From the sequence record MH816966: a stretch of 64,000 nt of DNA; one strand, 5' to 3'. Position numbers and translations under genes: made by a program. The DNA is from Escherichia phage FEC19. Positions 392-59,429 of this stretch are shown here, piece after piece. The stretch's first letter is position 1. Each line of letters opens with the position of its first letter. Below the pieces are notes generated by a model that saw only the letters and a program-made list of their open reading frames with translations, was not told the origin of the DNA and searched no databases.

Positions 392-1018
392 ATGGTTAGC
401 TTAAATCGCTTTTCTACTAGCGGCGACGTTATCGCAACTAAGACCGCCGACCTCGTTGCATTTTATAATGCAAATTCCGGCTCTAAGCCGATTAAGAAAT
501 TTGCGGACCGGCGGACCGCCGAGACTCGCGTAATCGCGCTAATCGAGTCCTTAAACGCGCTCGATGAGCCGTCCAACGAATCGCCCATCCCCGACGCGAA
601 GTCGCGTGAGGAAGTGTCCAGCGATGTAAAAACGCATAAGGCGCGTGCGGTCGTTAAAAAGGCCGAGCCGACTCAGGAAGAACTCGACGCGATGACCGAC
701 GAAGAGTATGAAGCATTCGTTAAAAGCGGCCTAAACGATAGTGCAAATTGCGTAGTGCAAAATGGAACTCCTTCCCATCGCCGTTCGAATAGCGAAGGTA
801 TTGCAAAAAGTTGGGATAATAAGGAAGTGGCGCAAAAGCGTCTCACCCGTAACGGCGTCATGGTCGAGGGAGTAGGCGAGTTCAAATCGGTCCGCGTAGC
901 GTTCGCCGCGCTGGGATTACCGGATAGCAAGCACATTCGCTTCCGCATGAAACTTAAGGAAGCTGGACGCTTGAACTTTGAGTTCGGCAACAAGTCCTAC
1001 ACCTTCCAGATCATCTAA
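392..1018 (+). CDS. hypothetical protein
   Basis: 208-aa ORF with AGGAG RBS at 379-383; contains two ATAGTGCAAAT-type motif copies in frame. Confidence 0.5.
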   Translation: MVSLNRFSTSGDVIATKTADLVAFYNANSGSKPIKKFADRRTAETRVIALIESLNALDEPSNESPIPDAKSREEVSSDVKTHKARAVVKKAEPTQEELDAMTDEEYEAFVKSGLNDSANCVVQNGTPSHRRSNSEGIAKSWDNKEVAQKRLTRNGVMVEGVGEFKSVRVAFAALGLPDSKHIRFRMKLKEAGRLNFEFGNKSYTFQII

Positions 1019-1446: not shown

Positions 1447-1920
1447 CTAGTGGCGGGAGAATTGCTCACCCTCTTTGGCCGCCTCTCCAAAATCCTTGTA
1501 GAAATCATCCATGGAACGGCCCATTTTACTATTGCCGTTTTCATCAATCATTGTGATGCCGTAGATGATATTCAGTTCACGAATGGCATTAAGCTTGGCT
1601 GACGCCGCGACTTCTGGATCACGCACAAGCTTCACTAAATTGTGGATGGAACTCTTTACGCTCCACAATTCTTTCAATGGCATCTCTTCCATACGCTTTT
1701 TGTAGCGCATCTTGTAGTACGGATTGCGCTGAGTGCAGAGGATTCGCTGGCCAGTGTAGTTATCGGTCGCAACCTCCATGCCAAATACTAGTGCAAAAGC
1801 TGCGCGCATGTCATGTCCCTGAATAACAAGGTCAATGAACTCATCGAATAACGCCTGATTATGCTCTGCAAATCGTGGGTCTTCAAAGTCTTCAGGCATT
1901 GCTACATAATCTTGACTCAT
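1447..1920 (-). CDS. hypothetical protein (start moved to internal Met MSQDYV)
   Basis: ORF 1447..2115 trimmed; sigma70-like promoter (TTGAAT / TGTATAAT) at ~1965-1995 lies inside the longer ORF. Confidence 0.5.
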   Translation of the reverse strand: MSQDYVAMPEDFEDPRFAEHNQALFDEFIDLVIQGHDMRAAFALVFGMEVATDNYTGQRILCTQRNPYYKMRYKKRMEEMPLKELWSVKSSIHNLVKLVRDPEVAASAKLNAIRELNIIYGITMIDENGNSKMGRSMDDFYKDFGEAAKEGEQFSRH

Positions 1921-2139
1921 AGTGCAAATCCCATAGTGCAAATTAATAGTGTGAATTATACAATGATTGAACATTATATTCAAGTGCAGATTGATGTTCA
2001 AATTGGCTGTAAACGTACATAAATCATAGTGCTGAATGAATATCGGACCGTGGTGCGTGGTGTACTGTTTGATACGTATAAAAGAAATCCATCCCTTTCG
2101 CCGCTTGTTATGCAAATCAATGACTTAGCCGCAGCTGGC

Positions 2140-2450
2140 TGGTTGAAGCGTATCATGACGTATCATCCGTATCGCCGCAAGTCTTTGTTTTTATTTATAT
2201 CTTACGGATAATACGTATAAATATAAGTTTAGTATAAGTATGAGGATGTAGAAAAAAATTAATTTAAATTAATTCAAAATGGAGTTAATTGTTTTTTTCA
2301 AAGTTGTATAAAGTATAGCGGCGACGCGTATCATCCGTATCATCCGTAAGATGTACCACTGAACCCAGTCGCGGCGCACCATAGAAGTGTGTGGAGTGAA
2401 CTACGGATAGGTCCAAATCTTACGTCATTATACGCTTAAATTCTATGCGT
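2140..2450. repeat. composite intergenic element copy 1: multiple TACGGATGA/TCATCCGTA 9-mers in both orientations, AT-rich palindromic core, GCGTATAATGACGTA box
   Basis: A ~45-bp block (ataaagtat.gcgg..acgcgtatcatccgtatcatccgtaagat) is near-identical to 54420-54468. Confidence 0.8.
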
Positions 2451-2762: not shown

Positions 2763-3215
2763 TTAAAATATAAAATTCTTCACTCCAAGCCTTTTAAATT
2801 CCTTCCTTATCATCATATTAAACTTCTTCAATTTAGTTTTATTCATCCTTAAAGGATTGTAAGTGAGTACCTCTTCTATTACTTCCTTACGCATCTTTGA
2901 GCGCATATTAGTTAAGTAATAATTCTTGAACATATTAATAAGGTGATTGGCTTCCAGCTTAAGCTCAATTACTTCTTCCGATTCATCAAGCTCAAGTAAT
3001 CCTTTTTGCGTAAGAATATCTCTTAATATATTCTGGCACTTCTTGCAATCACCTTTACCTAAAAGCGAATCGATATAATCGCCGCTGACGCGCTCATCAC
3101 CGAAATATGTTGCGCGACCGCAAAGGCTTTGCACTTCTCCTTCGTCAAAGTAATGCGCACGATGGCCCCACTTCGGTATGGCCCAACCAGCGGCGATAAG
3201 CTTGTTACCCATCAC
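2763..3215 (-). CDS. hypothetical early protein
   Basis: 150-aa ORF in tightly packed minus-strand operon. Confidence 0.5.
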   Translation of the reverse strand: MMGNKLIAAGWAIPKWGHRAHYFDEGEVQSLCGRATYFGDERVSGDYIDSLLGKGDCKKCQNILRDILTQKGLLELDESEEVIELKLEANHLINMFKNYYLTNMRSKMRKEVIEEVLTYNPLRMNKTKLKKFNMMIRKEFKRLGVKNFIF

Positions 3216-3637
3216 CCCTCCTTAACGACGCGATAAGCAATGATGTCGCTGCCCTTTAACGCGCCTATATGGCCCCAGTGAAGATGGTCAGAGAGTCTTG
3301 ACAGTACTTTATCTCCTCCATTGCGCAGCTTGTATTCAACCATCTTCCCAGGCACCGGATTATTGCCACCAAACCACACGGTCCACGCTTCCTCCTTCGG
3401 CGCATCAACGTCCACGCCTATAGTAGCAACAACGTCATGCAACTGCTTAACGAGCGCCGATGCATCACGGACCTGCGAGCGTAATGCAACCAACTCGCGT
3501 TGCGCTTCACTGTATTTCGCTTCCAGCGCGGCGTAGTCCTCATATGCAACAAAACGTCCTTCGTGACTTTCTGGAACAGGAGTGATGTCGAAATCTTCTG
3601 TCGCCACATCGTATGTCAGGTCATAACGTTGTATCAT
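3212..3637 (-). CDS. hypothetical early protein; C-terminal domain paralogous to 4841..5341
   Basis: Shared C-terminal W.GG.NPVPGK...IIAYRVV motif. Confidence 0.55.
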   Translation of the reverse strand: MIQRYDLTYDVATEDFDITPVPESHEGRFVAYEDYAALEAKYSEAQRELVALRSQVRDASALVKQLHDVVATIGVDVDAPKEEAWTVWFGGNNPVPGKMVEYKLRNGGDKVLSRLSDHLHWGHIGALKGSDIIAYRVVKEG

Positions 3638-3854
3638 TTAACTTCTCCAAAATTTCAATAGCGATTTGCGTTTGCTTCTCAAGAGCAAGACGCAACATGT
3701 CAATTTGCAAGTCACGATGGGCCAGTTCAGCAGCGATGTCCGCCTTGCTGTAAAGTCCTTCATGCGTCATGGCAAAGATGTGGCGCGTATAATAGCCGCC
3801 CTCGTCGAGTTGCTCGATGTCACGCTGCCCGACTGCGTATTGCTTATCGGTCAT
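3621..3854 (-). CDS. hypothetical early protein
   Basis: 77-aa ORF, operon packing. Confidence 0.4.
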   Translation of the reverse strand: MTDKQYAVGQRDIEQLDEGGYYTRHIFAMTHEGLYSKADIAAELAHRDLQIDMLRLALEKQTQIAIEILEKLNDTTL

Positions 3855-4503: not shown

Positions 4504-4841
4504 TTGACCTTCTCCAATTGGAATCTTGCTTCTGGAAAGCCTGCGACAAACATGTCACGGCCCTCGACATCACGCTTCACGAACCAACGCATTCCGCTGA
4601 CTACCGTGAAGACAATTTGCCTTCCATCAATAATAAGTCCTTTTGCCTCATAAAGCAAATAAGTCTGACCGACTTTGAAGCTTAACATATCCTTGCTTGT
4701 GCTGGTGCACTTGAGCCGCCACTGGGTGAGATTTGATTCGCTTGCTTCGATGTCAACAACCTTACCGCGCAGCGACGATGTGCGCTGAAGCTCTTGCATT
4801 TGCTCGTCGAACGTGAGTTCACGGCCTTCTTGCTCTTCCAT
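4500..4841 (-). CDS. hypothetical early protein
   Basis: 113-aa ORF. Confidence 0.5.
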   Translation of the reverse strand: MEEQEGRELTFDEQMQELQRTSSLRGKVVDIEASESNLTQWRLKCTSTSKDMLSFKVGQTYLLYEAKGLIIDGRQIVFTVVSGMRWFVKRDVEGRDMFVAGFPEARFQLEKVK

Positions 4842-5341
4842 TATTCCTCCACGACGCGATAAGCAATGATGTCATAAACGCTTCCGTTGTGCTGCCACAG
4901 CCATCCTTCTGAATTGGATGAATAAGAAGACTTCTCTTCATTCCTCCACATCAACATGACCTTCTTACCAGGCACCGGATTCTTGCCGCCAGCCCATTCA
5001 ATCCAACCTTCATGAGATTCTTCGGGCTTCTTCAAGTGCTCATGCTTCTCACCGATGTGGGCGACAGGTTGACGGCTTCCGTAATAGAATGCCAACGCAA
5101 CGTCGTAGGATGGATGGGTGTTGGATAAGCAAATGTCATCACACCAAAGCTCCATGGTGCGCGACTTAAGCGTCATCATATTAGTATACCACTCGATGGT
5201 GTAGTGGTCGTTAAGGTTGCCGACAATATAGAAGTTGCGGCAAAAGTGCGCAGCGTCATCCGACTTCTCGCGGCTATAGCTTCTGATTGCGCCTGCCTTT
5301 ACAGCCATTTCCAATACTGCTTCGAGTTGTTCGATTTTCAT
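4841..5341 (-). CDS. hypothetical early protein; C-terminal domain paralogous to 3212..3637
   Basis: C-terminus WAGGKNPVPGKKV...DIIAYRVVEE. Confidence 0.55.
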   Translation of the reverse strand: MKIEQLEAVLEMAVKAGAIRSYSREKSDDAAHFCRNFYIVGNLNDHYTIEWYTNMMTLKSRTMELWCDDICLSNTHPSYDVALAFYYGSRQPVAHIGEKHEHLKKPEESHEGWIEWAGGKNPVPGKKVMLMWRNEEKSSYSSNSEGWLWQHNGSVYDIIAYRVVEE

Positions 5342-5910: not shown

Positions 5911-5957
5911 AGTATAATACAGGCAAATAAAAAGGCAAGCATTTAGCTCACCTTTTT
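5911..5957 (-). promoter_or_regulatory. terminator-promoter cassette copy A: hairpin plus U-run after gene 5961..6221, overlapping sigma70-like promoter (TTGCCT-16-TATACT)
   Basis: 28-bp core aaaaggcaagcatttagctcaccttttt identical to 7470-7497. Confidence 0.6.
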
Positions 5958-5960
5958 GAA

Positions 5961-7448: not shown

Positions 7449-7497
7449 AGTATAAGTATTGATAAAAGAAAAGGCAAGCATTTAGCTCACCTTTTTG
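7449..7497 (-). promoter_or_regulatory. terminator-promoter cassette copy B (TTGCCT-17-TATACT)
   Basis: Same hairpin core as copy A, directly after stop of gene 7502..7834. Confidence 0.6.
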
Positions 7498-7501
7498 ATA
7501 T

Positions 7502-13604: not shown

Positions 13605-14687
13605 CTATTTTATGCCACCTGCGCGACGATTTATCATATCAAGTTGATTCTCAATATAAGGCATGACTACTGCTTCAACAAAAGCGGTCCAGCCTTTCTT
13701 GCCTTCACCTTTCCGGTGACAGTCGTGAGCGCAACCGAAAACGAATTCATGTTCAGCGCCAGGGATTGGGCCTCGAAAATAAGCGCCGTATGGGTCGCCG
13801 TTGGTGTGCTCTTCACCCCAAGGACAGATGATGCGGCATTTACCTGACATGTTTTCAACCACATCGCCATCGGACCCTTCGCCCATCTTATTGCGCGCAA
13901 GGATTTGCTGGGCTATTTTATACCAAACAGCATCATATTTGTATTCGTCAACGTCGATTTGAATTTCACGCTTTTGCGGCATAACGACGTGGAAACCGAA
14001 GGCTTGGCAAATCTCTTCGATTGTGTAGCGCAAGGAATAGTCTGCATGGACAAGTCGGCAGCGGAACGGGTCGCCGTTCTCATCGACATATTTATAGGGG
14101 CCGTCGTGAGTCACACGCTTGTTGTTGATGCACCCAGGAACACGGCCCACGCGCGTCACGTCTTTAATCGTGTTGTCGCCGCCCTTCTTGAGTACCATGT
14201 TTACGAAAGACCCAAGGAATGCTTTGAACTGAATAAGATGGTCAATCGGTTCTTTAAAGAAGTACCACAGCTGATGGTTGTTCGGCGAAGTCTCGACGAT
14301 GACGGTTGGTTTTAGGCGCTCGAAAAAGAATTCCAAATCTAAATCGCCCTTTGACCCTTTACCGTGCCCAATGTCGTCGACCATCATCGCCATGCCATGA
14401 CCAAAGGCCGATTCCGTGCGCCAGTATCGCATCTCGCCTGTCTTTGGGTTGGGAGACTTACGCATTGAACTTATGCAGGCGTAACCGTTCTGATGTTGCA
14501 TCAGCGGCTTGCCAAGCTTCCAAGGCTTAGGCCAGAAGCTGCTGTTAATCTTTTTGCCGCGCTCGTCAGTCTGCACTGTTGCTTCAGGCGCAAACACGGT
14601 CATGACGCGTTCATCTTCTGGAATGCCTCTTTGGAGTTCCGTCAAAAACTCTTCGATTATTTTTGCTTCTTCTCTTAAACTAGCCAT
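13605..14687 (-). CDS. archaeo-eukaryotic-type primase (prim-pol-like) with C-terminal Cys/His zinc motif
   Basis: Ordered AEP-like motifs: MVDDIG (DxD), TSPNNHQLWYFF (sGxGxH-like), KDVTRV; C-terminal CPWGEEH...CAHDCH. Confidence 0.55.
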   Translation of the reverse strand: MASLREEAKIIEEFLTELQRGIPEDERVMTVFAPEATVQTDERGKKINSSFWPKPWKLGKPLMQHQNGYACISSMRKSPNPKTGEMRYWRTESAFGHGMAMMVDDIGHGKGSKGDLDLEFFFERLKPTVIVETSPNNHQLWYFFKEPIDHLIQFKAFLGSFVNMVLKKGGDNTIKDVTRVGRVPGCINNKRVTHDGPYKYVDENGDPFRCRLVHADYSLRYTIEEICQAFGFHVVMPQKREIQIDVDEYKYDAVWYKIAQQILARNKMGEGSDGDVVENMSGKCRIICPWGEEHTNGDPYGAYFRGPIPGAEHEFVFGCAHDCHRKGEGKKGWTAFVEAVVMPYIENQLDMINRRAGGIK

Positions 14688-16358: not shown

Positions 16359-16517
16359 TGTTGACGTAAATTTACGAAAAATAAAACTGAAAATCAGTTT
16401 AATTAAAGTGGCATCGCCGCCAGAGTTTTTAGTTGCTACTGGCGGCGACTGAAGGCATAATTAAGTTATCCCAAACGGGGAATATAAAATAAACTAATTT
16501 ATTTAAGGACTGTGAAT

Positions 16518-17357
16518 ATGGCCGAAGCAATCAAAGTATTATCTAAAGAAGAAAAACAAGCAGCTGCAGCAGAACGTCGTCGCGTGGCTGAAGAAAAACG
16601 CCTGGCTAAAAAGAAAGAAGCCGAAGAAAAACGCCAGAAGCGTGAGCAGGAAAAACAAGCCAAGCGTGAAGAAGCTGCGCTGAAACGCAAGCAGGCTGCT
16701 GATGAGAAGGCTCAGAAGCGTGCTGAAGAAGCAGCGAAGAAAGCCAAAGAGCGTGCAGAAAAGGCTGCTGCTAAGAAAGCAGAGCGTGAAGCCGCTAAAG
16801 CAGCAAAAGAAATCGAAAAGGCAAAGGCTAAAGAAGAAGCCAAGCGCCTGAAAGCTGAACAAGCTGCTGCTAAGAAAGCAGAGCGTGATCAAGCCCGTGC
16901 TGCAGCGAAGGCCGAAAAAGAGAAGGCCAAAGAAGAAGCTAAAGCGAAACGCAAGGCAGAGCGTGAAGCTGCTAAGATTGCGGCTAAAGAAGCTGCAGAA
17001 AAGCAGAAAGAACAGCGTAAGAAAGAAGCTGAAGAACGTCGCAAAGCCATCGCAGAACGTAAGGCTGCTAAAAAGGCAAACGGTCAGCGTCGTGCAAAAG
17101 CAACCCACTTCATCTACACTGGCAATGGCCTGAGCCAGCCGCAAGAGCATTCCACCCGTGGACGCGTTCTGGCGGCGATCAAAGAAGGCGAAGTTGGCGT
17201 GGCGCAGTCTATCGATGAGCTGGGCGAAAAAGTTAAAGATCAACTGTTTGGCGCTTCCGTTCGCTCCTACCTGAGCAAGCTGGAAGAGATGGGCCACATC
17301 GAGTTTGTCGATGTTGAATCCAACGAAGATGCCGAAGACGGTGATCAAGCGGAATAA
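16518..17357 (+). CDS. K/A/E-rich low-complexity charged-repeat protein with small globular C-terminal domain
   Basis: ~200 aa of AEEKR/AKKAER-type repeats; ATG at 16518 preferred over GTG at 16512 (AAGGA RBS). Confidence 0.55.
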   Translation: MAEAIKVLSKEEKQAAAAERRRVAEEKRLAKKKEAEEKRQKREQEKQAKREEAALKRKQAADEKAQKRAEEAAKKAKERAEKAAAKKAEREAAKAAKEIEKAKAKEEAKRLKAEQAAAKKAERDQARAAAKAEKEKAKEEAKAKRKAEREAAKIAAKEAAEKQKEQRKKEAEERRKAIAERKAAKKANGQRRAKATHFIYTGNGLSQPQEHSTRGRVLAAIKEGEVGVAQSIDELGEKVKDQLFGASVRSYLSKLEEMGHIEFVDVESNEDAEDGDQAE

Positions 17358-52709: not shown

Positions 52710-54128
52710 TTATTCCCCTTTCAACCAAGCTTCAAACGCTTCGTCAGTTGCTGCAGAATCCGCAGCGGCCTTTTGTTTTGCGACTACACGCTGTTTTTGA
52801 CCGTGTTCAACGCCGCGCAGATAATTATCCACCACGTCAAACTCAGCACCATCAACGCACTTCAAGCCTAACTTTTTAGCGCCATATTTCGCTACGGACT
52901 TGGAGTCCATAGTTGCATGATCAAAGGCACCAACAACTTTAGACAGGCGCTGGTAGAGGCTATTCTTACGAGCAGAATCAGCGTAGAAAGCAGCAACTGC
53001 TGAATCAGATGCCATTGAGTGTTCCCCTTTTGCTGGACCTGGCGACGCTTTCGCCGCTTTTGTCGGTTTGTCATCTTTTTCGACCGAAGCCCCCTTTACG
53101 TTGCTGTTTTGCAGGCCGCTAACCACATCTTCAGCTTTGTCGCAAGGTGATACATCTTCAGCCTTGACTTCAACTTCTTCGTCTTTGACTTCGGCTTCAA
53201 CTTCTTCTTCATCACCTACCGCGCCACCTTTCAGTTTTGCAATAAGTGCTTCGATTTGGCTGATCAGTTGCGGAAGCTCGCCGCCAGCGTGAGATTCAGT
53301 TTCAACTTCAAACTTCTCTTCACCTTCTGGAGTCTCTTCAGCTTCTGCTTTGACTTCTGGATCAACCATCACTTCTTCACGTTCTTCGGTTGAATCCTTC
53401 TCTTCTGCTTTCACTTCAACTTCGTCCTGATGAGCAGCTTCGGTGCTCTCTTCATTCAGAAATTGTTCGAGCGCAGGGATCAGTGACTTCAGCTGTTCAA
53501 CAGCATTATCACGCGCTTTACCTTTTAACGGTTTTGGCATGTCTAAATCCTCGTTGGATGGTGTTACAGTCGTCAAACAAAGATGGTCAAAGCAACGACC
53601 ATCCAGCACCCGTGCACCTGGTACTCGACCAACGTCCACGAGAGCAATGTGGTTGCCGCGAAGAGTTGTCTGTACCACTTCATACGGCTGCCCGTCAAAC
53701 TCTCCAGACTGTATGATGAATTCACAGTCATAGCCCAAAGACAAGTCAACCTTTCCAGAATCGATGGCTTTCTTCAGACGACGGCTAAAAACTTTAAGGT
53801 CGCCGCGCATCCATGGCTTGTCATAATAAACATTGCCAGTTAGAACGCCATCAACGCCATACTCTTCGGGTGCTGTGTTATCCTCATCACCTTCGAATCC
53901 AGAAAGCATTTCGTGATTGTCGATGAAAGGGATATTTTTGAATGAATCTATCGCTTCGGGGTCTTTCACCGCTGACTCTGGGCGATAAACTTTTACGATG
54001 CGATTCGGATCACCATCAAGTCCAACCTGACCTGCAGAATAATCAAAAATGCCAAATGACGAAATGGGACAACCCACAATCGTCAAGAATCCATTTTTGT
54101 CAATTTCGCGTGCCGTTTGCATTCGCAT
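52710..54128 (-). CDS. prohead protease-like N-terminal domain fused to acidic scaffold-like region
   Basis: Long E/K/V-rich acidic repeats (EVEAEVKDEEVEVKAED) after a ~200-aa N-terminal domain. Confidence 0.5.
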   Translation of the reverse strand: MRMQTAREIDKNGFLTIVGCPISSFGIFDYSAGQVGLDGDPNRIVKVYRPESAVKDPEAIDSFKNIPFIDNHEMLSGFEGDEDNTAPEEYGVDGVLTGNVYYDKPWMRGDLKVFSRRLKKAIDSGKVDLSLGYDCEFIIQSGEFDGQPYEVVQTTLRGNHIALVDVGRVPGARVLDGRCFDHLCLTTVTPSNEDLDMPKPLKGKARDNAVEQLKSLIPALEQFLNEESTEAAHQDEVEVKAEEKDSTEEREEVMVDPEVKAEAEETPEGEEKFEVETESHAGGELPQLISQIEALIAKLKGGAVGDEEEVEAEVKDEEVEVKAEDVSPCDKAEDVVSGLQNSNVKGASVEKDDKPTKAAKASPGPAKGEHSMASDSAVAAFYADSARKNSLYQRLSKVVGAFDHATMDSKSVAKYGAKKLGLKCVDGAEFDVVDNYLRGVEHGQKQRVVAKQKAAADSAATDEAFEAWLKGE

Positions 54129-54151
54129 CCACCCTCAAATAAGTATTGTGT

Positions 54152-54180
54152 ATTATATCTAATGAAAAAAACTTAGGCAA
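54152..54180 (-). promoter_or_regulatory. sigma70-like promoter (TTGCCT-17-TATAAT) for capsid operon
   Basis: Read from reverse complement; GAGGGTGG RBS before ATG 54128. Confidence 0.55.
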
Positions 54181-54224
54181 ACAATAATTATGGTTTGAAT
54201 ATGTATAACAACCGATATAGCCGC

Positions 54225-54530
54225 GCCTTAATTAGTGTGATACGGATGATACGGATAAAATGAGGCGTATTTTTATCCGTATCGGTGTATAAGCCGCGCT
54301 ATCACTGGTGTGCTACGGATGATACGGATGATACGGATACTTTTCATATATAAGAGTTTATAAAAAAAATAAAATTAAATTAGATATATAATTTTAAATT
54401 AATTTATTTGAATTCCTATAAAGTATCGCGGCAACGCGTATCATCCGTATCATCCGTAAGATTCTTTTGAAAACAACTACTTACTTGATACGGATGATAC
54501 GTCATTATACGCGTAAAATCCTGCGGCAAT
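54225..54530. repeat. composite intergenic element copy 2 (TACGGATGA 9-mers, 13-bp perfect inverted repeat, AT-rich core, GCGTATAATGACGTA box)
   Basis: Homologous to 2140-2450; triple tandem tacggatga at ~54282-54308. Confidence 0.8.
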
Positions 54531-54545
54531 CCATTGCCAGGCGAT

Positions 54546-54683
54546 TCAGTGAATATTAAAAAGCACTCCAGCAACTAAAACGCCAATCAGCATCGAGTCG
54601 TAAACAGCCCATTTCCAAGAAAGCAAAGAGTTGCAATTAATATTTCGCACTTTAACGTAACGTGACTGAATAATCTTTTGCAT
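54546..54683 (-). CDS. small membrane protein (45 aa, C-terminal TM), not in ORF track
   Basis: AAGAGGA RBS; MQKIIQSRYVKV...MLIGVLVAGVLFNIH. Confidence 0.35.
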   Translation of the reverse strand: MQKIIQSRYVKVRNINCNSLLSWKWAVYDSMLIGVLVAGVLFNIH

Positions 54684-54693
54684 AACTTCCTCT

Positions 54694-55614
54694 TTAGTTC
54701 AACTTAATTGCGGTGATCTGTCCGTAAACGGTAGATGTCAATGCGTCTGTGCATTGATAGTTTAGATACACATTGCCAGGCGCGGCAAGAGTAATTATCT
54801 TTGTTGGAATATTGCCGCCGAAACGACCTGCAGCCCGAATGCCAGCAGACATCGTGAATGCATCATCCGTAATATCTGAATTACTTGTTGACAATTTTAC
54901 TGTAATTCCGGTATTCGCTTGAACTCCTTCTGTTGCGACAGTCAACTGACTTGCTGTCACAAGCCATTTCCCTGCAGGCAGGTTTAATGTTGCCAGATTC
55001 ACCAGAGTTGTCGGAGGATTGCTTACACTATTGCTTGTGTTTTGCACATTGCTTGCAGCAGCATTAAGAACTCCAGAACCATCAATTGATAGTGTCGTTC
55101 CTACTTTTACGCCACCCAAGGTTGATGCTGATGCAATCGGTAACGAGTATTGAGTAACACTAATTGTACCGTCACCTGCAACACTTATGCCACTTCCTAT
55201 CTTGACACCGCCGAGAACAGAAGCCGTTGCCGCTGGTAACGTGTATTGGTTGCCGCTGGATTTGACTACCTTAACGGCGACAGCATTCTTGGACCCTCCA
55301 GACTCCATGCCTATAATCACCGCTTCTCCAAAAGCGATGGTGATTGTAGATGCAGTTAAACCAGTCTGCACGTCTGTTATGTTCATTTTGGGAACTGAAA
55401 GTGTCAGATTCGGCTTGCTGGTAGAATCGCCATCATTACCGATCATAAAGAATTGACCAACTGAATTGTATCCAGACGCCAATGGCGGACTCAATGGAAC
55501 AATCAGGTTTTTATCGGATGTAAATTCTGAAACAATCGCCAAACCGTTAGCATATACAGCAGGCAATACTGGCGTTTGTCCAGATAGAGGAAACGTGCTG
55601 ATTGGTATCGTCAT
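54694..55614 (-). CDS. fiber-like structural protein with internal tandem repeat
   Basis: Repeat YTLPAATASVLGGVKIGSGISVAGDGTISV / YSLPIASASTLGGVKVGTTLSIDGSGVLNA. Confidence 0.5.
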   Translation of the reverse strand: MTIPISTFPLSGQTPVLPAVYANGLAIVSEFTSDKNLIVPLSPPLASGYNSVGQFFMIGNDGDSTSKPNLTLSVPKMNITDVQTGLTASTITIAFGEAVIIGMESGGSKNAVAVKVVKSSGNQYTLPAATASVLGGVKIGSGISVAGDGTISVTQYSLPIASASTLGGVKVGTTLSIDGSGVLNAAASNVQNTSNSVSNPPTTLVNLATLNLPAGKWLVTASQLTVATEGVQANTGITVKLSTSNSDITDDAFTMSAGIRAAGRFGGNIPTKIITLAAPGNVYLNYQCTDALTSTVYGQITAIKLN

Positions 55615-55621
55615 AATGACC

Positions 55622-56473
55622 TCAAATGATTGGTATTTTTCTGCACTTGCAGTGTATTGCCCATCCAGGAGGACCGATGTCACCCTTTTTGAACTTCAAT
55701 TCGCCGCCAACTTCCCATAGGCGCTTGTCATCAAGTTTAAATCTCATTCCGTCGACGTGTTCATGAGAGATTCGCGGCTCCTTTCCTGCTCCTGAGTGCG
55801 CCCATTCAAATTCTTCAACTCCATTCTGGCGCATTCTTTCATCGCTCAGAACGCAATACAATTTGCTTGTCTGGTCTTTGGCGATTAAGTCGACTCTCTT
55901 TGCAGAGAAGTGTTTTACGTTTCGCAGCGCCGCCTGAATGCCTGACGTGCCTTGCTGGGCTGGGTCGGGCGAAGTCAGTGAAAGCATAACTGCTTCGTAC
56001 ACTCTGTTGTGAATATCCTCGCCAACCTTGGTCACTAGAGTCGTGTTGAACGTCTCGCTTGTTCTAAGAGTGTTCTCAACGAATTTGTTATATGTGGCCT
56101 TTGGCGCTTCTATGCCTGCGGACTTAAGGCTGGCGAATGTAGCAGAAGTGGCACCCTTTTCGACCGACTTGATAAAATCAGCGGCAATCTTCGACCCAAC
56201 ACGCGCAAACGCCTTTGCCCATTTCAGCTGCAGACGTTTCATAAGAGTTTGGAATGTTGAATCAGCAGAGTCTTGCGCAAAGAACTTCTGCACCTGCTTC
56301 TTTTCAAGCCATTCTGAAATGCCTGCCTGATAGTCATCAATCATCGCATAGCAAAGACCTTTCATCTCACGACGGTAGGCCATCGCAATAGCGTTTGATG
56401 GGATTATCGGACTGCCGCGCCCGATTCTATCGGGTGAGCGGCGTTCACGTTTTTTCGAAGCTTTAAAAGCCAT
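55622..56473 (-). CDS. head morphogenesis protein, MuF/SPP1 gp7-like
   Basis: C-terminal EEFEWAHSGAGKEPRISHEHVDG motif; start trimmed to MAFKAS. Confidence 0.7.
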   Translation of the reverse strand: MAFKASKKRERRSPDRIGRGSPIIPSNAIAMAYRREMKGLCYAMIDDYQAGISEWLEKKQVQKFFAQDSADSTFQTLMKRLQLKWAKAFARVGSKIAADFIKSVEKGATSATFASLKSAGIEAPKATYNKFVENTLRTSETFNTTLVTKVGEDIHNRVYEAVMLSLTSPDPAQQGTSGIQAALRNVKHFSAKRVDLIAKDQTSKLYCVLSDERMRQNGVEEFEWAHSGAGKEPRISHEHVDGMRFKLDDKRLWEVGGELKFKKGDIGPPGWAIHCKCRKIPII

Positions 56474-59012: not shown

Positions 59013-59429
59013 ATGAGCACAACAATTGTATTTGTCGTCCTACACAACGGCGAAGTCGTTAACGTATGCGAATATGAAGAACTGGCAAAGGCCACTGCTG
59101 CGCGATACGAAGGTGCTACTATTGACCCGTGGATTTTAGATGCGCGCAACGTCTTGCAGGCGACTTTGGATGAGTGGCTGTTGGGTCGCAAAGTCTATCC
59201 AGTAGACGACATCGACTCAATTCAAGGTGAAACAGTATATTTTGAAGATGAATGCGTTCGCGGCATCGGCAAATTTATGGGATTGTGCCCATCTTCATCC
59301 AAAAATAAATTTTATCGTATTCAAGTTGAAGAAAACGATATGTTTGACAAAGTTACGCGCTCGATTGTTCCTGACGGCGGCACTCCAATCTTTATGGCAG
59401 AATCAGACATCAAGGGGATCATCAAATGA
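59013..59429 (+). CDS. hypothetical protein in opposite-strand cassette
   Basis: 138-aa ORF with strong RBS. Confidence 0.5.
   Translation: MSTTIVFVVLHNGEVVNVCEYEELAKATAARYEGATIDPWILDARNVLQATLDEWLLGRKVYPVDDIDSIQGETVYFEDECVRGIGKFMGLCPSSSKNKFYRIQVEENDMFDKVTRSIVPDGGTPIFMAESDIKGIIK

What the first reader, a model, noticed from the sequence alone, without database searches (positions are those of the whole stretch)
2140..2450. Two diverged copies of a ~300-bp iteron-rich element ~52 kb apart
Regions 2140-2450 and 54225-54530 share the same architecture: several TACGGATGA / TCATCCGTA 9-mers in both orientations (tandem triple at ~54282-54308), a near-identical ~45-bp block (2308-2355 versus 54420-54468), an AT-rich palindromic core, and a GCGTATAATGACGTA box. 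Both lie upstream of minus-strand promoters. This looks like a set of binding sites for one DNA-binding protein, either a transcriptional regulator or a replication initiator, and no such system is obvious from the protein annotations.
Basis: seen in the sequence. Interest (0 to 1): 0.8.

Follow-up and report, generated by a model that had tools for sequence, protein, structure and literature searches.

The report
Twin packaging-site repeat arrays in coliphage
Two ~300-bp blocks of the same 9-base repeat are real: one holds the exact spot where this E. coli phage's DNA is cut for packaging, next to the small terminase gene, and the other is an unexplained twin in front of the capsid-assembly genes, a pair kept in five related phage genera.

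Summary
In the register CGTATCATC (=TACGGATGA), all 9 exact copies in 64 kb lie in element A (2140-2450) or element B (54225-54530).

The window is a Wifcevirus, a PB1-like E. coli myophage. Four records from three laboratories start at window 2280. So the left boundary of the ~3.7-kb direct terminal repeat lies in A's AT-rich core. The arrays flank it in inverted orientation, 360 bp upstream of the small terminase (TerS) gene (1447-1920, minus).

B has the same dyad layout. It sits in the gap before the head protease-scaffold-capsid operon and is not a genome end.

The pair occupies the same two positions in Kylevirus, Myosmarvirus, Pbunavirus and Bcepfunavirus. Each genus has its own repeat, shared by its A and B (BcepF1: 16 of 16 TTAGTTA in the two clusters). 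In Pbunavirus JG024, published read starts place the packaging start inside A.

Best reading: both are docking arrays for one phage-encoded protein, most likely TerS. A is the packaging signal. B's role is unknown; co-regulation or a second docking site is my guess. Binding is untested.

This is a new variant of a pac/cos-type site, with a conserved second copy not described in the papers I could search.

The parts
1447..1920 (-). Small terminase (TerS) gene, 157 aa, start ATG at 1920
   Evidence: phmmer hit to PDB 7UXE 'Small terminase', E=1.9e-32. 100% identical to Mansfield gp002, which is annotated as terminase small subunit.
1955..2001 (-). Two overlapping sigma-70-like promoters in front of TerS (TTGAAC/TTGAAT-17-TATAAT)
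   Evidence: Consensus scan, 10 of 12 matches. The homologous position in Pbunavirus 14-1 has a mapped start site, P041.
2149..2176 (+). Element A, outer array on the TerS side: CGTATCATGA CGTATCATC CGTATCGCC (3 units)
   Evidence: conserved in all Wifcevirus subgroups
2202..2219 (-). Element A, inner array on the TerS side, degenerate (CGTATTATC CGTAAG read on the minus strand)
2257..2274 (.). 18-bp perfect AT palindrome AATTAATTTAAATTAATT, bases 7-24 of the packaged genome
   Evidence: Read directly. Imperfect in Mansfield and WFC, so perfect symmetry is not required.
2280..2281 (.). Physical left genome end and left boundary of the ~3.7-kb direct terminal repeat. Virion DNA starts at 2280 and runs toward lower coordinates.
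   Evidence: Mansfield, WFH, WFC and Ro157lw records all begin with the reverse complement of the window from 2280. Mansfield was opened at the PhageTerm DTR boundary. In WFH, position 1 equals position 67583.
2307..2352 (+). Element A, conserved block TATAAAGTATAGCGGCGACG plus inner array CGTATCATC CGTATCATC CGTAAGAT
   Evidence: 44 of 46 identical to 54417-54462. The tandem units are kept in subgroups whose flanks have diverged.
2364..2385 (+). A-specific GC-rich block CCCAGTCGCGGCGCACCATAGA on the non-repeat side of the cut
   Evidence: Identical 22 nt in Serratia phage MyoSmar at 3634-3655, at a similar distance from its terminus. CCAGGCGCGGC is kept in all Wifcevirus subgroups. Absent from the matching place in B.
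2401..2435 (-). Element A, outer array on the far side: CTACGGATA plus TACGTCATTATACGC (= GCGTATAATGA CGTA on the minus strand)
   Evidence: (D18, I1)
54152..54180 (-). Sigma-70-like promoter in front of the head maturation protease (TTGCCT-17-TATAAT)
   Evidence: the homologous 14-1 promoter P014 has a mapped start site
52710..54128 (-). Head maturation protease gene, first gene of the protease-scaffold-major capsid operon downstream of B
   Evidence: Pfam DUF2213 E=5e-35; PHROG 3778 head maturation protease E=8.5e-173
54236..54285 (.). Element B, outer arrays on the protease side: TGTGATACGGATGATACGGATA and TTATCCGTATCG, in opposite orientations
54313..54339 (-). Element B, inner array: CTACGGATGATACGGATGATACGGATA (3 tandem units)
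   Evidence: (I9)
54340..54416 (.). Element B, AT-rich core (90% AT)
54417..54462 (+). Element B, conserved block TATAAAGTATCGCGGCAACG plus inner array CGTATCATC CGTATCATC CGTAAGAT. It forms a 22-bp perfect inverted repeat with 54314-54335.
   Evidence: (I9); 54312-54460 folds as a hairpin with z = -9.3
54484..54512 (-). Element B, outer array: CTTGATACGGATGATACGTCATTATACGC (3 units on the minus strand)
   Evidence: (I1)

Best explanation
A and B are paralogous arrays of docking sites for one phage-encoded, genus-specific DNA-binding protein. Each array has a 9-bp unit (CGTATCATC) in runs of two or three. The outer runs point inward and the inner runs point outward around an AT-rich core.

Element A is the packaging initiation signal. 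The terminase cut that makes the left genome end, and the left boundary of the ~3.7-kb direct terminal repeat, falls at 2280|2281 in A's core. Packaging runs from there toward the adjacent TerS gene. That adjacency and the cut position make the ring-shaped small terminase the most likely binder. On this reading A works like lambda cosB, SPP1 pacL/pacR or P1 pac.

Element B is a second array for the same protein. It lies in front of the head protease-scaffold-capsid operon and is not a genome end. My preferred guess for B is that it ties head-gene expression, or head-gene DNA, to the same protein, as an operator or second docking site.

Shown here: the repeat statistics, the terminus position, the TerS identity, and the conservation and covariation in five genera. 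Inferred: that a protein binds, that it is TerS (my estimate about 0.45), and what B does.
For: (1) Specificity. All 9 exact CGTATCATC copies in 64 kb lie in A or B. TACGGATGA occurs 10 times against 0.28 expected.

(2) Terminus. Four records from three laboratories start at window 2280. Mansfield was opened at the PhageTerm DTR boundary. The WFH repeat offset gives the same base. The right boundary is also base-identical in Mansfield and WFH, so the ends are fixed.

(3) TerS. The gene is 360 bp from the cut.

(4) The same pair at the same two syntenic sites in four further genera, each with its own repeat: Kyle GGTTATT, 17 of 17 in A or B of the 27 kb held; MyoSmar CGAAAAGTA; Pbunavirus GGTAATTTGG; BcepF1 TTAGTTA, 16 of 16 in 72.4 kb. 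The matrix of 8-mers shared between A and B has a diagonal of 30/20/17/30 and off-diagonal values of 2-9.

(5) The DTR boundary lies 360-390 bp upstream of TerS inside the element in Kyle and MyoSmar too.

(6) In Pbunavirus JG024, 36 of 161 long reads start at 59,376 and a pac fragment fits that site (PMC10913387). That base lies inside the A homologue, about 50 bp from its AT core.

(7) Footprint. Within Wifcevirus the sequence diverges 10 bp beyond the cut, but the tandem units, the CCAGGCGCGGC block and the outer units persist. B is 97-100% conserved, more than the flanking coding sequence.

(8) E217 TerS is a decameric ring. Units spaced about one helical turn apart suit adjacent subunits of a ring; this is inference.

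(9) Among TerS orthologues the N-terminal helix-turn-helix region varies most while the core is conserved.
Against: No binding data exist. The related E217 TerS showed no appreciable DNA binding in vitro (review PMC9611059); I could not read which DNA was tested.

No pac or cos system that I know of has a conserved second array far from the cut. An array (B) with more exact units than A (6 exact CGTATCATC against 3) should compete for TerS or attract cuts, yet no record or report shows an end at B.

B is as symmetric as A without any cut, so the dyad design is not explained by cutting.

In Pbunavirus 14-1 a mapped sigma-70 start site (P040) sits directly after the tandem repeats of A. That fits an operator for a transcription factor equally well.

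A lies next to the primase gene in 3 of 5 genera. Iterons flanking an AT-rich core is also the classic look of an origin.
Confidence: 0.5

Rival explanations
1. The repeats are operators for a dedicated phage transcription factor, not TerS, which co-regulates two head-and-packaging operons (TerS; protease-scaffold-capsid). The terminase cut in A uses other cues and only happens to lie in the same intergenic region.
For: Both elements lie directly upstream of sigma-70-type promoters and operons. In 14-1 the start site P040 lies immediately after the tandem repeats of A, and P041 and P014 are the gene-proximal promoters. B is symmetric without a cut. Two sites upstream of two operons sharing a motif is the usual signature of a regulon.
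Against: No candidate regulator was found: neighbouring ORFs have no DNA-binding domain. The cut falls inside the element, flanked by arrays, in four genera, which is hard to call coincidence. No start site was mapped in the B core of 14-1. Other late operons (TerL, portal, tail) lack the repeats.
Confidence: 0.2
2. A and B are replication elements bound by the phage initiator, for example the DNA-binding part of the primase/helicase. They would act as two origins, or as an origin plus a cis-acting partner like ori and crr of satellite phage P4.
For: Inverted iterons flanking an 82-90% AT core. A abuts the primase gene in Pbunavirus, and lies near it in MyoSmar and BcepF1. From my own knowledge, P4 alpha protein binds the same octamer in two sites 4.5 kb apart. 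The window encodes a RepB-type primase and a VapE-like helicase.
Against: In Wifcevirus the primase and helicase genes are 8-12 kb from A. Cumulative GC skew follows transcription direction and marks neither element. The repeats are not DnaA boxes and differ between phages of closely related hosts. The terminus and the TerS linkage hold in all five genera, primase linkage in only three.
Confidence: 0.15
3. B is a neutral or recent duplicate of A, kept similar by gene conversion, or is a mobile inverted-repeat element.
For: A and B share a 27-nt exact stretch. One metagenome contig ends exactly at this shared block, showing that the repeat confuses assemblers.
Against: The pair sits at the same two syntenic positions in five genera infecting beta- and gamma-proteobacteria. 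Outside the motifs A and B are diverged, so conversion is not homogenising them. B is more conserved than the flanking genes.
Confidence: 0.03
4. The inverted repeats act as RNA hairpins (terminator, attenuator or RNase III site) in the long structural transcript, not as protein-binding DNA.
For: 54312-54460 folds into a long hairpin, z = -9.3. B lies between two co-directional gene blocks.
Against: A hairpin does not need the same 9-mer at two loci, nor tandem direct copies, nor outer arrays. Covariation is by motif identity between loci, not by compensatory pairing. No Rfam family reaches its threshold.
Confidence: 0.03
5. The repeats bind a host protein such as DnaA; TTATCCGTA resembles the DnaA box TTATCCACA.
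For: 7 of 9 match for one copy (54274-54282; read directly, DnaA box from my own knowledge). One IHF-consensus match at 2115-2127.
Against: Phages of E. coli, Pantoea and Serratia, whose hosts are closely related enterobacteria, use unrelated repeats. The IHF pattern is not enriched, 6 against 4.4 expected.
Confidence: 0.03

Closest known systems
Phage P1 pac site (PacA/PacB)
   Same: Short repeats, hexamers in P1, arranged in two clusters on both sides of the cleavage region, with a bendable AT-rich or IHF region between them, next to the terminase genes. (From my own knowledge.)
   Different: P1 packages by headful without fixed repeats, uses Dam methylation of the hexamers, and has one site only. 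Here the unit is 9 bp, the ends are fixed with a 3.7-kb repeat, and a second array lies 16 kb away.
Bacillus phage SPP1 pac (pacL-pacC-pacR) bound by TerS G1P
   Same: TerS contacts repeated boxes on both sides of the cut made by TerL, and the site lies at the TerS gene (review PMC9611059).
   Different: SPP1 is a headful packager and has no second copy. The box sequences and spacing are unrelated.
Lambda cos (cosQ-cosN-cosB with R sites for gpNu1)
   Same: The order is cut site, then TerS-binding repeats, then the TerS gene. The packaged end is the one carrying the TerS-side repeats. (From my own knowledge.)
   Different: Lambda makes 12-nt cohesive ends and has three 16-bp R sites on one side only. 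Here arrays lie on both sides and the ends are long direct repeats.
T4 gp16 pac synapsis (gene 16 and gene 19 homologous sites)
   Same: It is the only packaging model I know with two similar TerS sites at a distance, proposed to be paired by twin TerS rings.
   Different: T4 has no unique pac site and its second site is a short chance-like homology inside a gene. Here both sites are large, non-coding and conserved across genera.
Satellite phage P4 ori and crr
   Same: Two separated clusters of the same short iteron, bound by one phage protein and both needed in cis. (From my own knowledge.)
   Different: In P4 the function is replication and the binder is the primase-helicase. Here one cluster is the genome terminus beside TerS.
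Pbunavirus JG024 putative pac site at 59,376
   Same: It is the homologous locus: the reported read-start peak falls inside the Pbunavirus copy of element A.
   Different: That paper reports only a position. The repeats, the dyad layout and the second copy were not described, and Pbunavirus is reported to be circularly permuted rather than having fixed repeats.

Membership tests
Terminase recognition/cleavage site (pac or cos type) of tailed phages | Contains or abuts the physical genome end made by terminase | tested here: met
   For element A only. Four records start at window 2280; PhageTerm boundary; WFH repeat offset. B is not at any reported end.
Terminase recognition/cleavage site (pac or cos type) of tailed phages | Lies in or next to the small terminase gene | tested here: met
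   TerS at 1447-1920, 360 bp from the cut. The same arrangement holds in Kyle, MyoSmar, Pbunavirus and BcepF1.
Terminase recognition/cleavage site (pac or cos type) of tailed phages | Repeated sequence motifs flanking the cut | tested here: met
   Arrays at 2149-2219 and 2327-2435 around 2280|2281.
Terminase recognition/cleavage site (pac or cos type) of tailed phages | Specific binding by TerS and requirement for packaging | not testable with these tools
   Needs EMSA or footprinting and genetics. The only related datum is negative: E217 TerS showed no appreciable DNA binding in vitro.
Phage with fixed direct terminal repeats | Both repeat boundaries are sequence-defined and reproducible | tested here: met
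   The left boundary is identical in four records. The right boundary is identical to the base in Mansfield (3673) and WFH (3701). The right boundary lies outside the window.
Iteron-type replication origin | Iterons next to an AT-rich unwinding region | tested here: met
   Both elements. This feature is shared with pac sites, so it does not discriminate.
Iteron-type replication origin | Initiator gene adjacent, and host DnaA boxes | tested here: inconclusive
   Primase is adjacent to A in Pbunavirus, MyoSmar and BcepF1, but 8-12 kb away in this window. There are no consensus DnaA boxes.
Iteron-type replication origin | Replication starts there | not testable with these tools
   GC skew is uninformative. 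Marker-frequency data are needed.
Operator array of a co-regulated promoter pair (regulon) | Motif lies at or upstream of mapped promoters of both operons | tested here: inconclusive
   Predicted promoters lie downstream of both elements. In 14-1 a start site abuts the repeats in A (P040), but none was mapped in the B core. There are no data for Wifcevirus itself.

The most novel reading that the evidence does not exclude
The packaging signal of PB1-like phages is a two-site system. The same protein, probably TerS, must occupy both the terminus array (A) and a distant twin (B) in front of the capsid genes. It would do so either to pair the two sites before cutting or repeat duplication, or to feed packaging status back onto head-gene expression. 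Specificity would have co-evolved at both sites over five genera.
Probability: 0.25. Interest if true: 0.8.

Novelty: new variant of a known kind. Interest (0 to 1): 0.62.

Why it matters
How small terminases recognise viral DNA is still disputed. For the PB1-like group, which includes widely used therapeutic Pseudomonas phages, a TerS structure exists (E217, PDB 7UXE) but no binding site, and the protein did not bind DNA in vitro.

These arrays give a concrete site to test, together with five natural specificity variants. They also explain why Wifcevirus records are opened where they are.

The conserved twin in front of the capsid operon is unexpected. If it binds TerS, it would be a new link between packaging and head assembly or expression.

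A practical point: the 27-nt exact repeat shared by A and B can break assemblies. Knowing the true ends matters for rebooting or engineering these phages.

Tried and rejected
- Host DnaA or IHF as the binder: rejected. The repeats differ between phages of closely related hosts, and the IHF pattern is not enriched.
- RNA element: no Rfam family near its threshold.
- Candidate DNA-binding proteins among neighbouring ORFs: none by Pfam, PHROGs or PDB sequence search.
- GC skew as a way to find an origin: it only follows transcription direction.
- IMG/VR scan with the 22-mer: only 4 contigs (6 loci), all Wifcevirus. One is 100% identical to the window over the stretches compared (A 2040-2760 and B 54130-54700).
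- A third copy of the repeat at the right repeat boundary: absent in Mansfield, Kyle and MyoSmar. A different motif sits there.
- The primary E217 TerS paper could not be read, so I do not know which DNA was tested for binding.
- The 14-1 supplement gave start sites but no time-resolved or regulator data.

Full report
**What the window is.** The two regions match 27-28 GenBank phage records at 90-99% identity (one distant Pantoea match aside). All of these are Wifcevirus, E. coli/Shigella myophages of 66-72 kb related to Pseudomonas PB1-like phages. One IMG/VR contig of 68,472 bp is 100% identical over the stretches compared.

**Check of the observation.**
- TACGGATGA occurs 10 times against 0.28 expected.
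- Read in the register CGTATCATC, there are 9 exact copies in 64 kb: 3 in element A, 6 in element B, none elsewhere.
- The shared block is real. It is 66 nt at 85% identity, and its core matches at 44 of 46 positions.
- The 'GCGTATAATGACGTA box' is simply two more units of the same repeat.
- The AT-rich cores are 82% AT (A) and 90% AT (B), against 54% for the window.

**Anatomy.** Both elements have the same pseudo-dyad layout. An outer array points inward, an inner array points outward, then comes the AT-rich core, then the mirror image.
- A: 2149-2176 (+), 2202-2219 (-), core with the palindrome at 2257-2274, 2327-2352 (+), a GC-rich block at 2364-2385, then 2401-2435 (-).
- B: 54236-54285, 54313-54339 (-), core, 54437-54462 (+), 54484-54512 (-).
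- B is the more regular copy. Its inner arrays form a 22-bp perfect inverted repeat, and 54312-54460 folds as a hairpin with z = -9.3.

**Element A holds the genome end.**
- The Mansfield record is the reverse complement of the window. [quoted passage not shown] Its first base is window 2280.
- WFH and WFC were deposited with both repeats, 'about 3.7 kb each'. In WFH, position 1 equals position 67583, which is the same base.
- Mansfield, WFH, WFC and Ro157lw, from three laboratories, all start ATTTT(G/A)A..., which is the reverse complement of the window from 2280.
- The right boundary is also identical to the base in Mansfield and WFH. These are fixed ends, not headful scatter.
- The cut lies between the inner arrays, 6 bp from the palindrome.

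**The neighbouring gene is TerS.** The minus-strand ORF that starts at 1920 matches PDB 7UXE 'Small terminase' with E = 1.9e-32. It is identical to Mansfield gp002, annotated as terminase small subunit. Sigma-70-like promoters lie between A and TerS, and between B and the head maturation protease gene at 52710-54128.

**The pair is ancient and covaries.** Relatives were found with TerS as the query.

| Phage (genus) | Element A | Element B | Shared repeat |
|---|---|---|---|
| Pantoea phage Kyle (Kylevirus) | Its 3,603-bp repeat starts 356 bp upstream of TerS, inside an AT-rich core | 515-bp gap before the protease homologue | GGTTATT / GGAATAACC, 9-bp period; 17 of 17 copies in the 27 kb held lie in A or B |
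| Serratia phage MyoSmar (Myosmarvirus) | PhageTerm boundary 387 bp upstream of TerS | Gap before the protease | CGAAAAGTA |
| Pbunavirus (vB3530, JG024, 14-1) | Upstream of TerS | Upstream of protease | GGTAATTTGG, plus longer shared blocks |
| Burkholderia phage BcepF1 (Bcepfunavirus) | Upstream of TerS | Upstream of prohead protease | TTAGTTA; all 16 copies in 72.4 kb fall in these two clusters |

- A matrix of 8-mers shared between A and B has a diagonal of 30, 20, 17 and 30. Off-diagonal values are 2-9.
- A motif that changes between genera but stays matched between two loci of one genome implies one co-evolving, phage-encoded binder and selection on both loci. This removes the 'recent neutral duplication' refutation.

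**Published experimental support from Pbunavirus.**
- In JG024, 36 of 161 long reads begin at 59,376 +/-5, and a restriction 'pac fragment' fits that site. That base lies inside the A homologue, about 50 bp from its AT core and 600 bp upstream of TerS. An independent record, vB3530, starts 2 nt away.
- In 14-1, cappable-seq maps a sigma-70 start site (P040) immediately after the tandem repeats of A. It also maps the gene-proximal promoters P041 (TerS) and P014 (protease). No start site was mapped in the B core.

**Footprinting within the genus.** Ten bases beyond the cut, on the non-repeat side, the Wifcevirus subgroups diverge completely. Each still keeps the tandem ATCCGTATCATCCGTA, a CCAGGCGCGGC block, an inverted unit and the outer units. 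B is 97-100% identical across the genus and varies less than the coding sequence beside it. A 22-nt GC-rich block (2364-2385) is identical in MyoSmar at a similar distance from its terminus. It has no counterpart in B, so it may mark the copy that is cut.

**Interpretation.**
- A is a packaging signal of the P1 pac, SPP1 pac or lambda cosB type. It has repeats on both sides of the cut, sits beside the TerS gene, and packaging proceeds toward TerS.
- The likeliest binder is TerS. Its relative E217 TerS is a decameric ring, and units spaced about one helical turn apart would suit neighbouring subunits. This is inference.
- Across the five genera the N-terminal helix-turn-helix region of TerS varies most, while the core is conserved. 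That is consistent with changing specificity, but it is not proof.
- Against this, E217 TerS did not bind DNA appreciably in vitro. Also, no known pac or cos system has a conserved second array.
- B is not a reported end. Its function is not established. I favour an operator or second docking site for the same protein in front of the head operon. A pairing role with A, or a replication role like P4 ori/crr, is not excluded.
- My rough split for the binder: TerS 0.45; another phage transcription factor 0.2-0.25; a replication initiator 0.15-0.2; a host factor below 0.05.

**Novelty.** The terminal-repeat boundary and the TerS annotation are already in GenBank, and a putative pac position is published for JG024. 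I did not find the following in the papers I could search: the repeat arrays, their dyad layout around the cut, the twin upstream of the head protease, and the concerted change of both across five genera. I rate this a new variant of a known kind, with an unexplained conserved second copy.

Noticed in passing
L003 (Mansfield) 3540-3720; L006 (Kyle) 3440-3650; outside the window: The right boundary of the terminal repeat has its own signal. AATCATTA-type repeats with roughly 15-bp spacing lie before the cut, and (CA)GTACACTAATCA lies about 30-45 bp after it. Unlike the A/B repeats, this signal is conserved between Wifcevirus and Kylevirus, and a related GTACACTAAAT occurs in MyoSmar. No A/B-type repeats occur there.
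   Followed up: partly
window 738-757, 1136-1155, 1251-1273, 1431-1453, 1917-1939: A second repeat family, (TT)ATAGTGCAAAT, is confined to the terminal-repeat region. Two tandem copies sit between the TerS promoter -10 and the TerS start codon, so it may be an operator or a 5'-UTR element. The other copies lie inside or just after ORFs.
   Followed up: no
window 2364-2385 = L007 (MyoSmar) 3634-3655: A 22-nt non-coding block, CCCAGTCGCGGCGCACCATAGA, is identical between an E. coli phage and a Serratia phage whose TerS proteins are only about 30-35% identical. MyoSmar also has an inverted copy at 3349-3371. A GCGGCA/CGCGGC motif recurs in A and B of all genera.
   Followed up: partly
L019 (IMGVR_UViG_3300045988_152943), locus end at 13650 = window 54462: The locus held for this metagenome-assembled Wifcevirus contig stops 4 nt after the shared A/B block in element B, which suggests the contig itself ends there. 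This is most likely an assembly break at the 27-nt exact repeat, not a physical end.
   Followed up: no
window 2281 onward versus L021-L024: Wifcevirus subgroups are near-identical up to 10 bp past the terminus and then unrelated for several hundred bases. The genome end is therefore also a mosaic or recombination junction between the conserved terminal repeat and a variable block of small genes.
   Followed up: partly
window 3219-3391 vs 4845-5011; 5925-5959 vs 7464-7498: There are paralogous stretches in two small minus-strand ORFs (3212-3637 and 4841-5341), and a 35-nt near-identical terminator-like repeat about 1.5 kb apart (D6, D11, D10).
   Followed up: no
window 16755-17086: Lys/Ala/Glu-rich coding repeats with a 99-nt period lie inside ORF 16512-17357 (D3, D7).
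   Followed up: no
window 54863-54871: A single exact TACGGATGA lies inside the head-fibre-like ORF 54694-55683, 330 bp beyond B. It is isolated and probably chance.
   Followed up: no
relatives: Pbunavirus versus Wifcevirus, Kylevirus and Myosmarvirus: Pbunavirus is reported as circularly permuted and headful-packaged, while the enterobacterial relatives have fixed ~3.6-3.7-kb repeats. All keep the A/B pair, so the packaging mode seems to have changed while the initiation signal was retained.
   Followed up: partly
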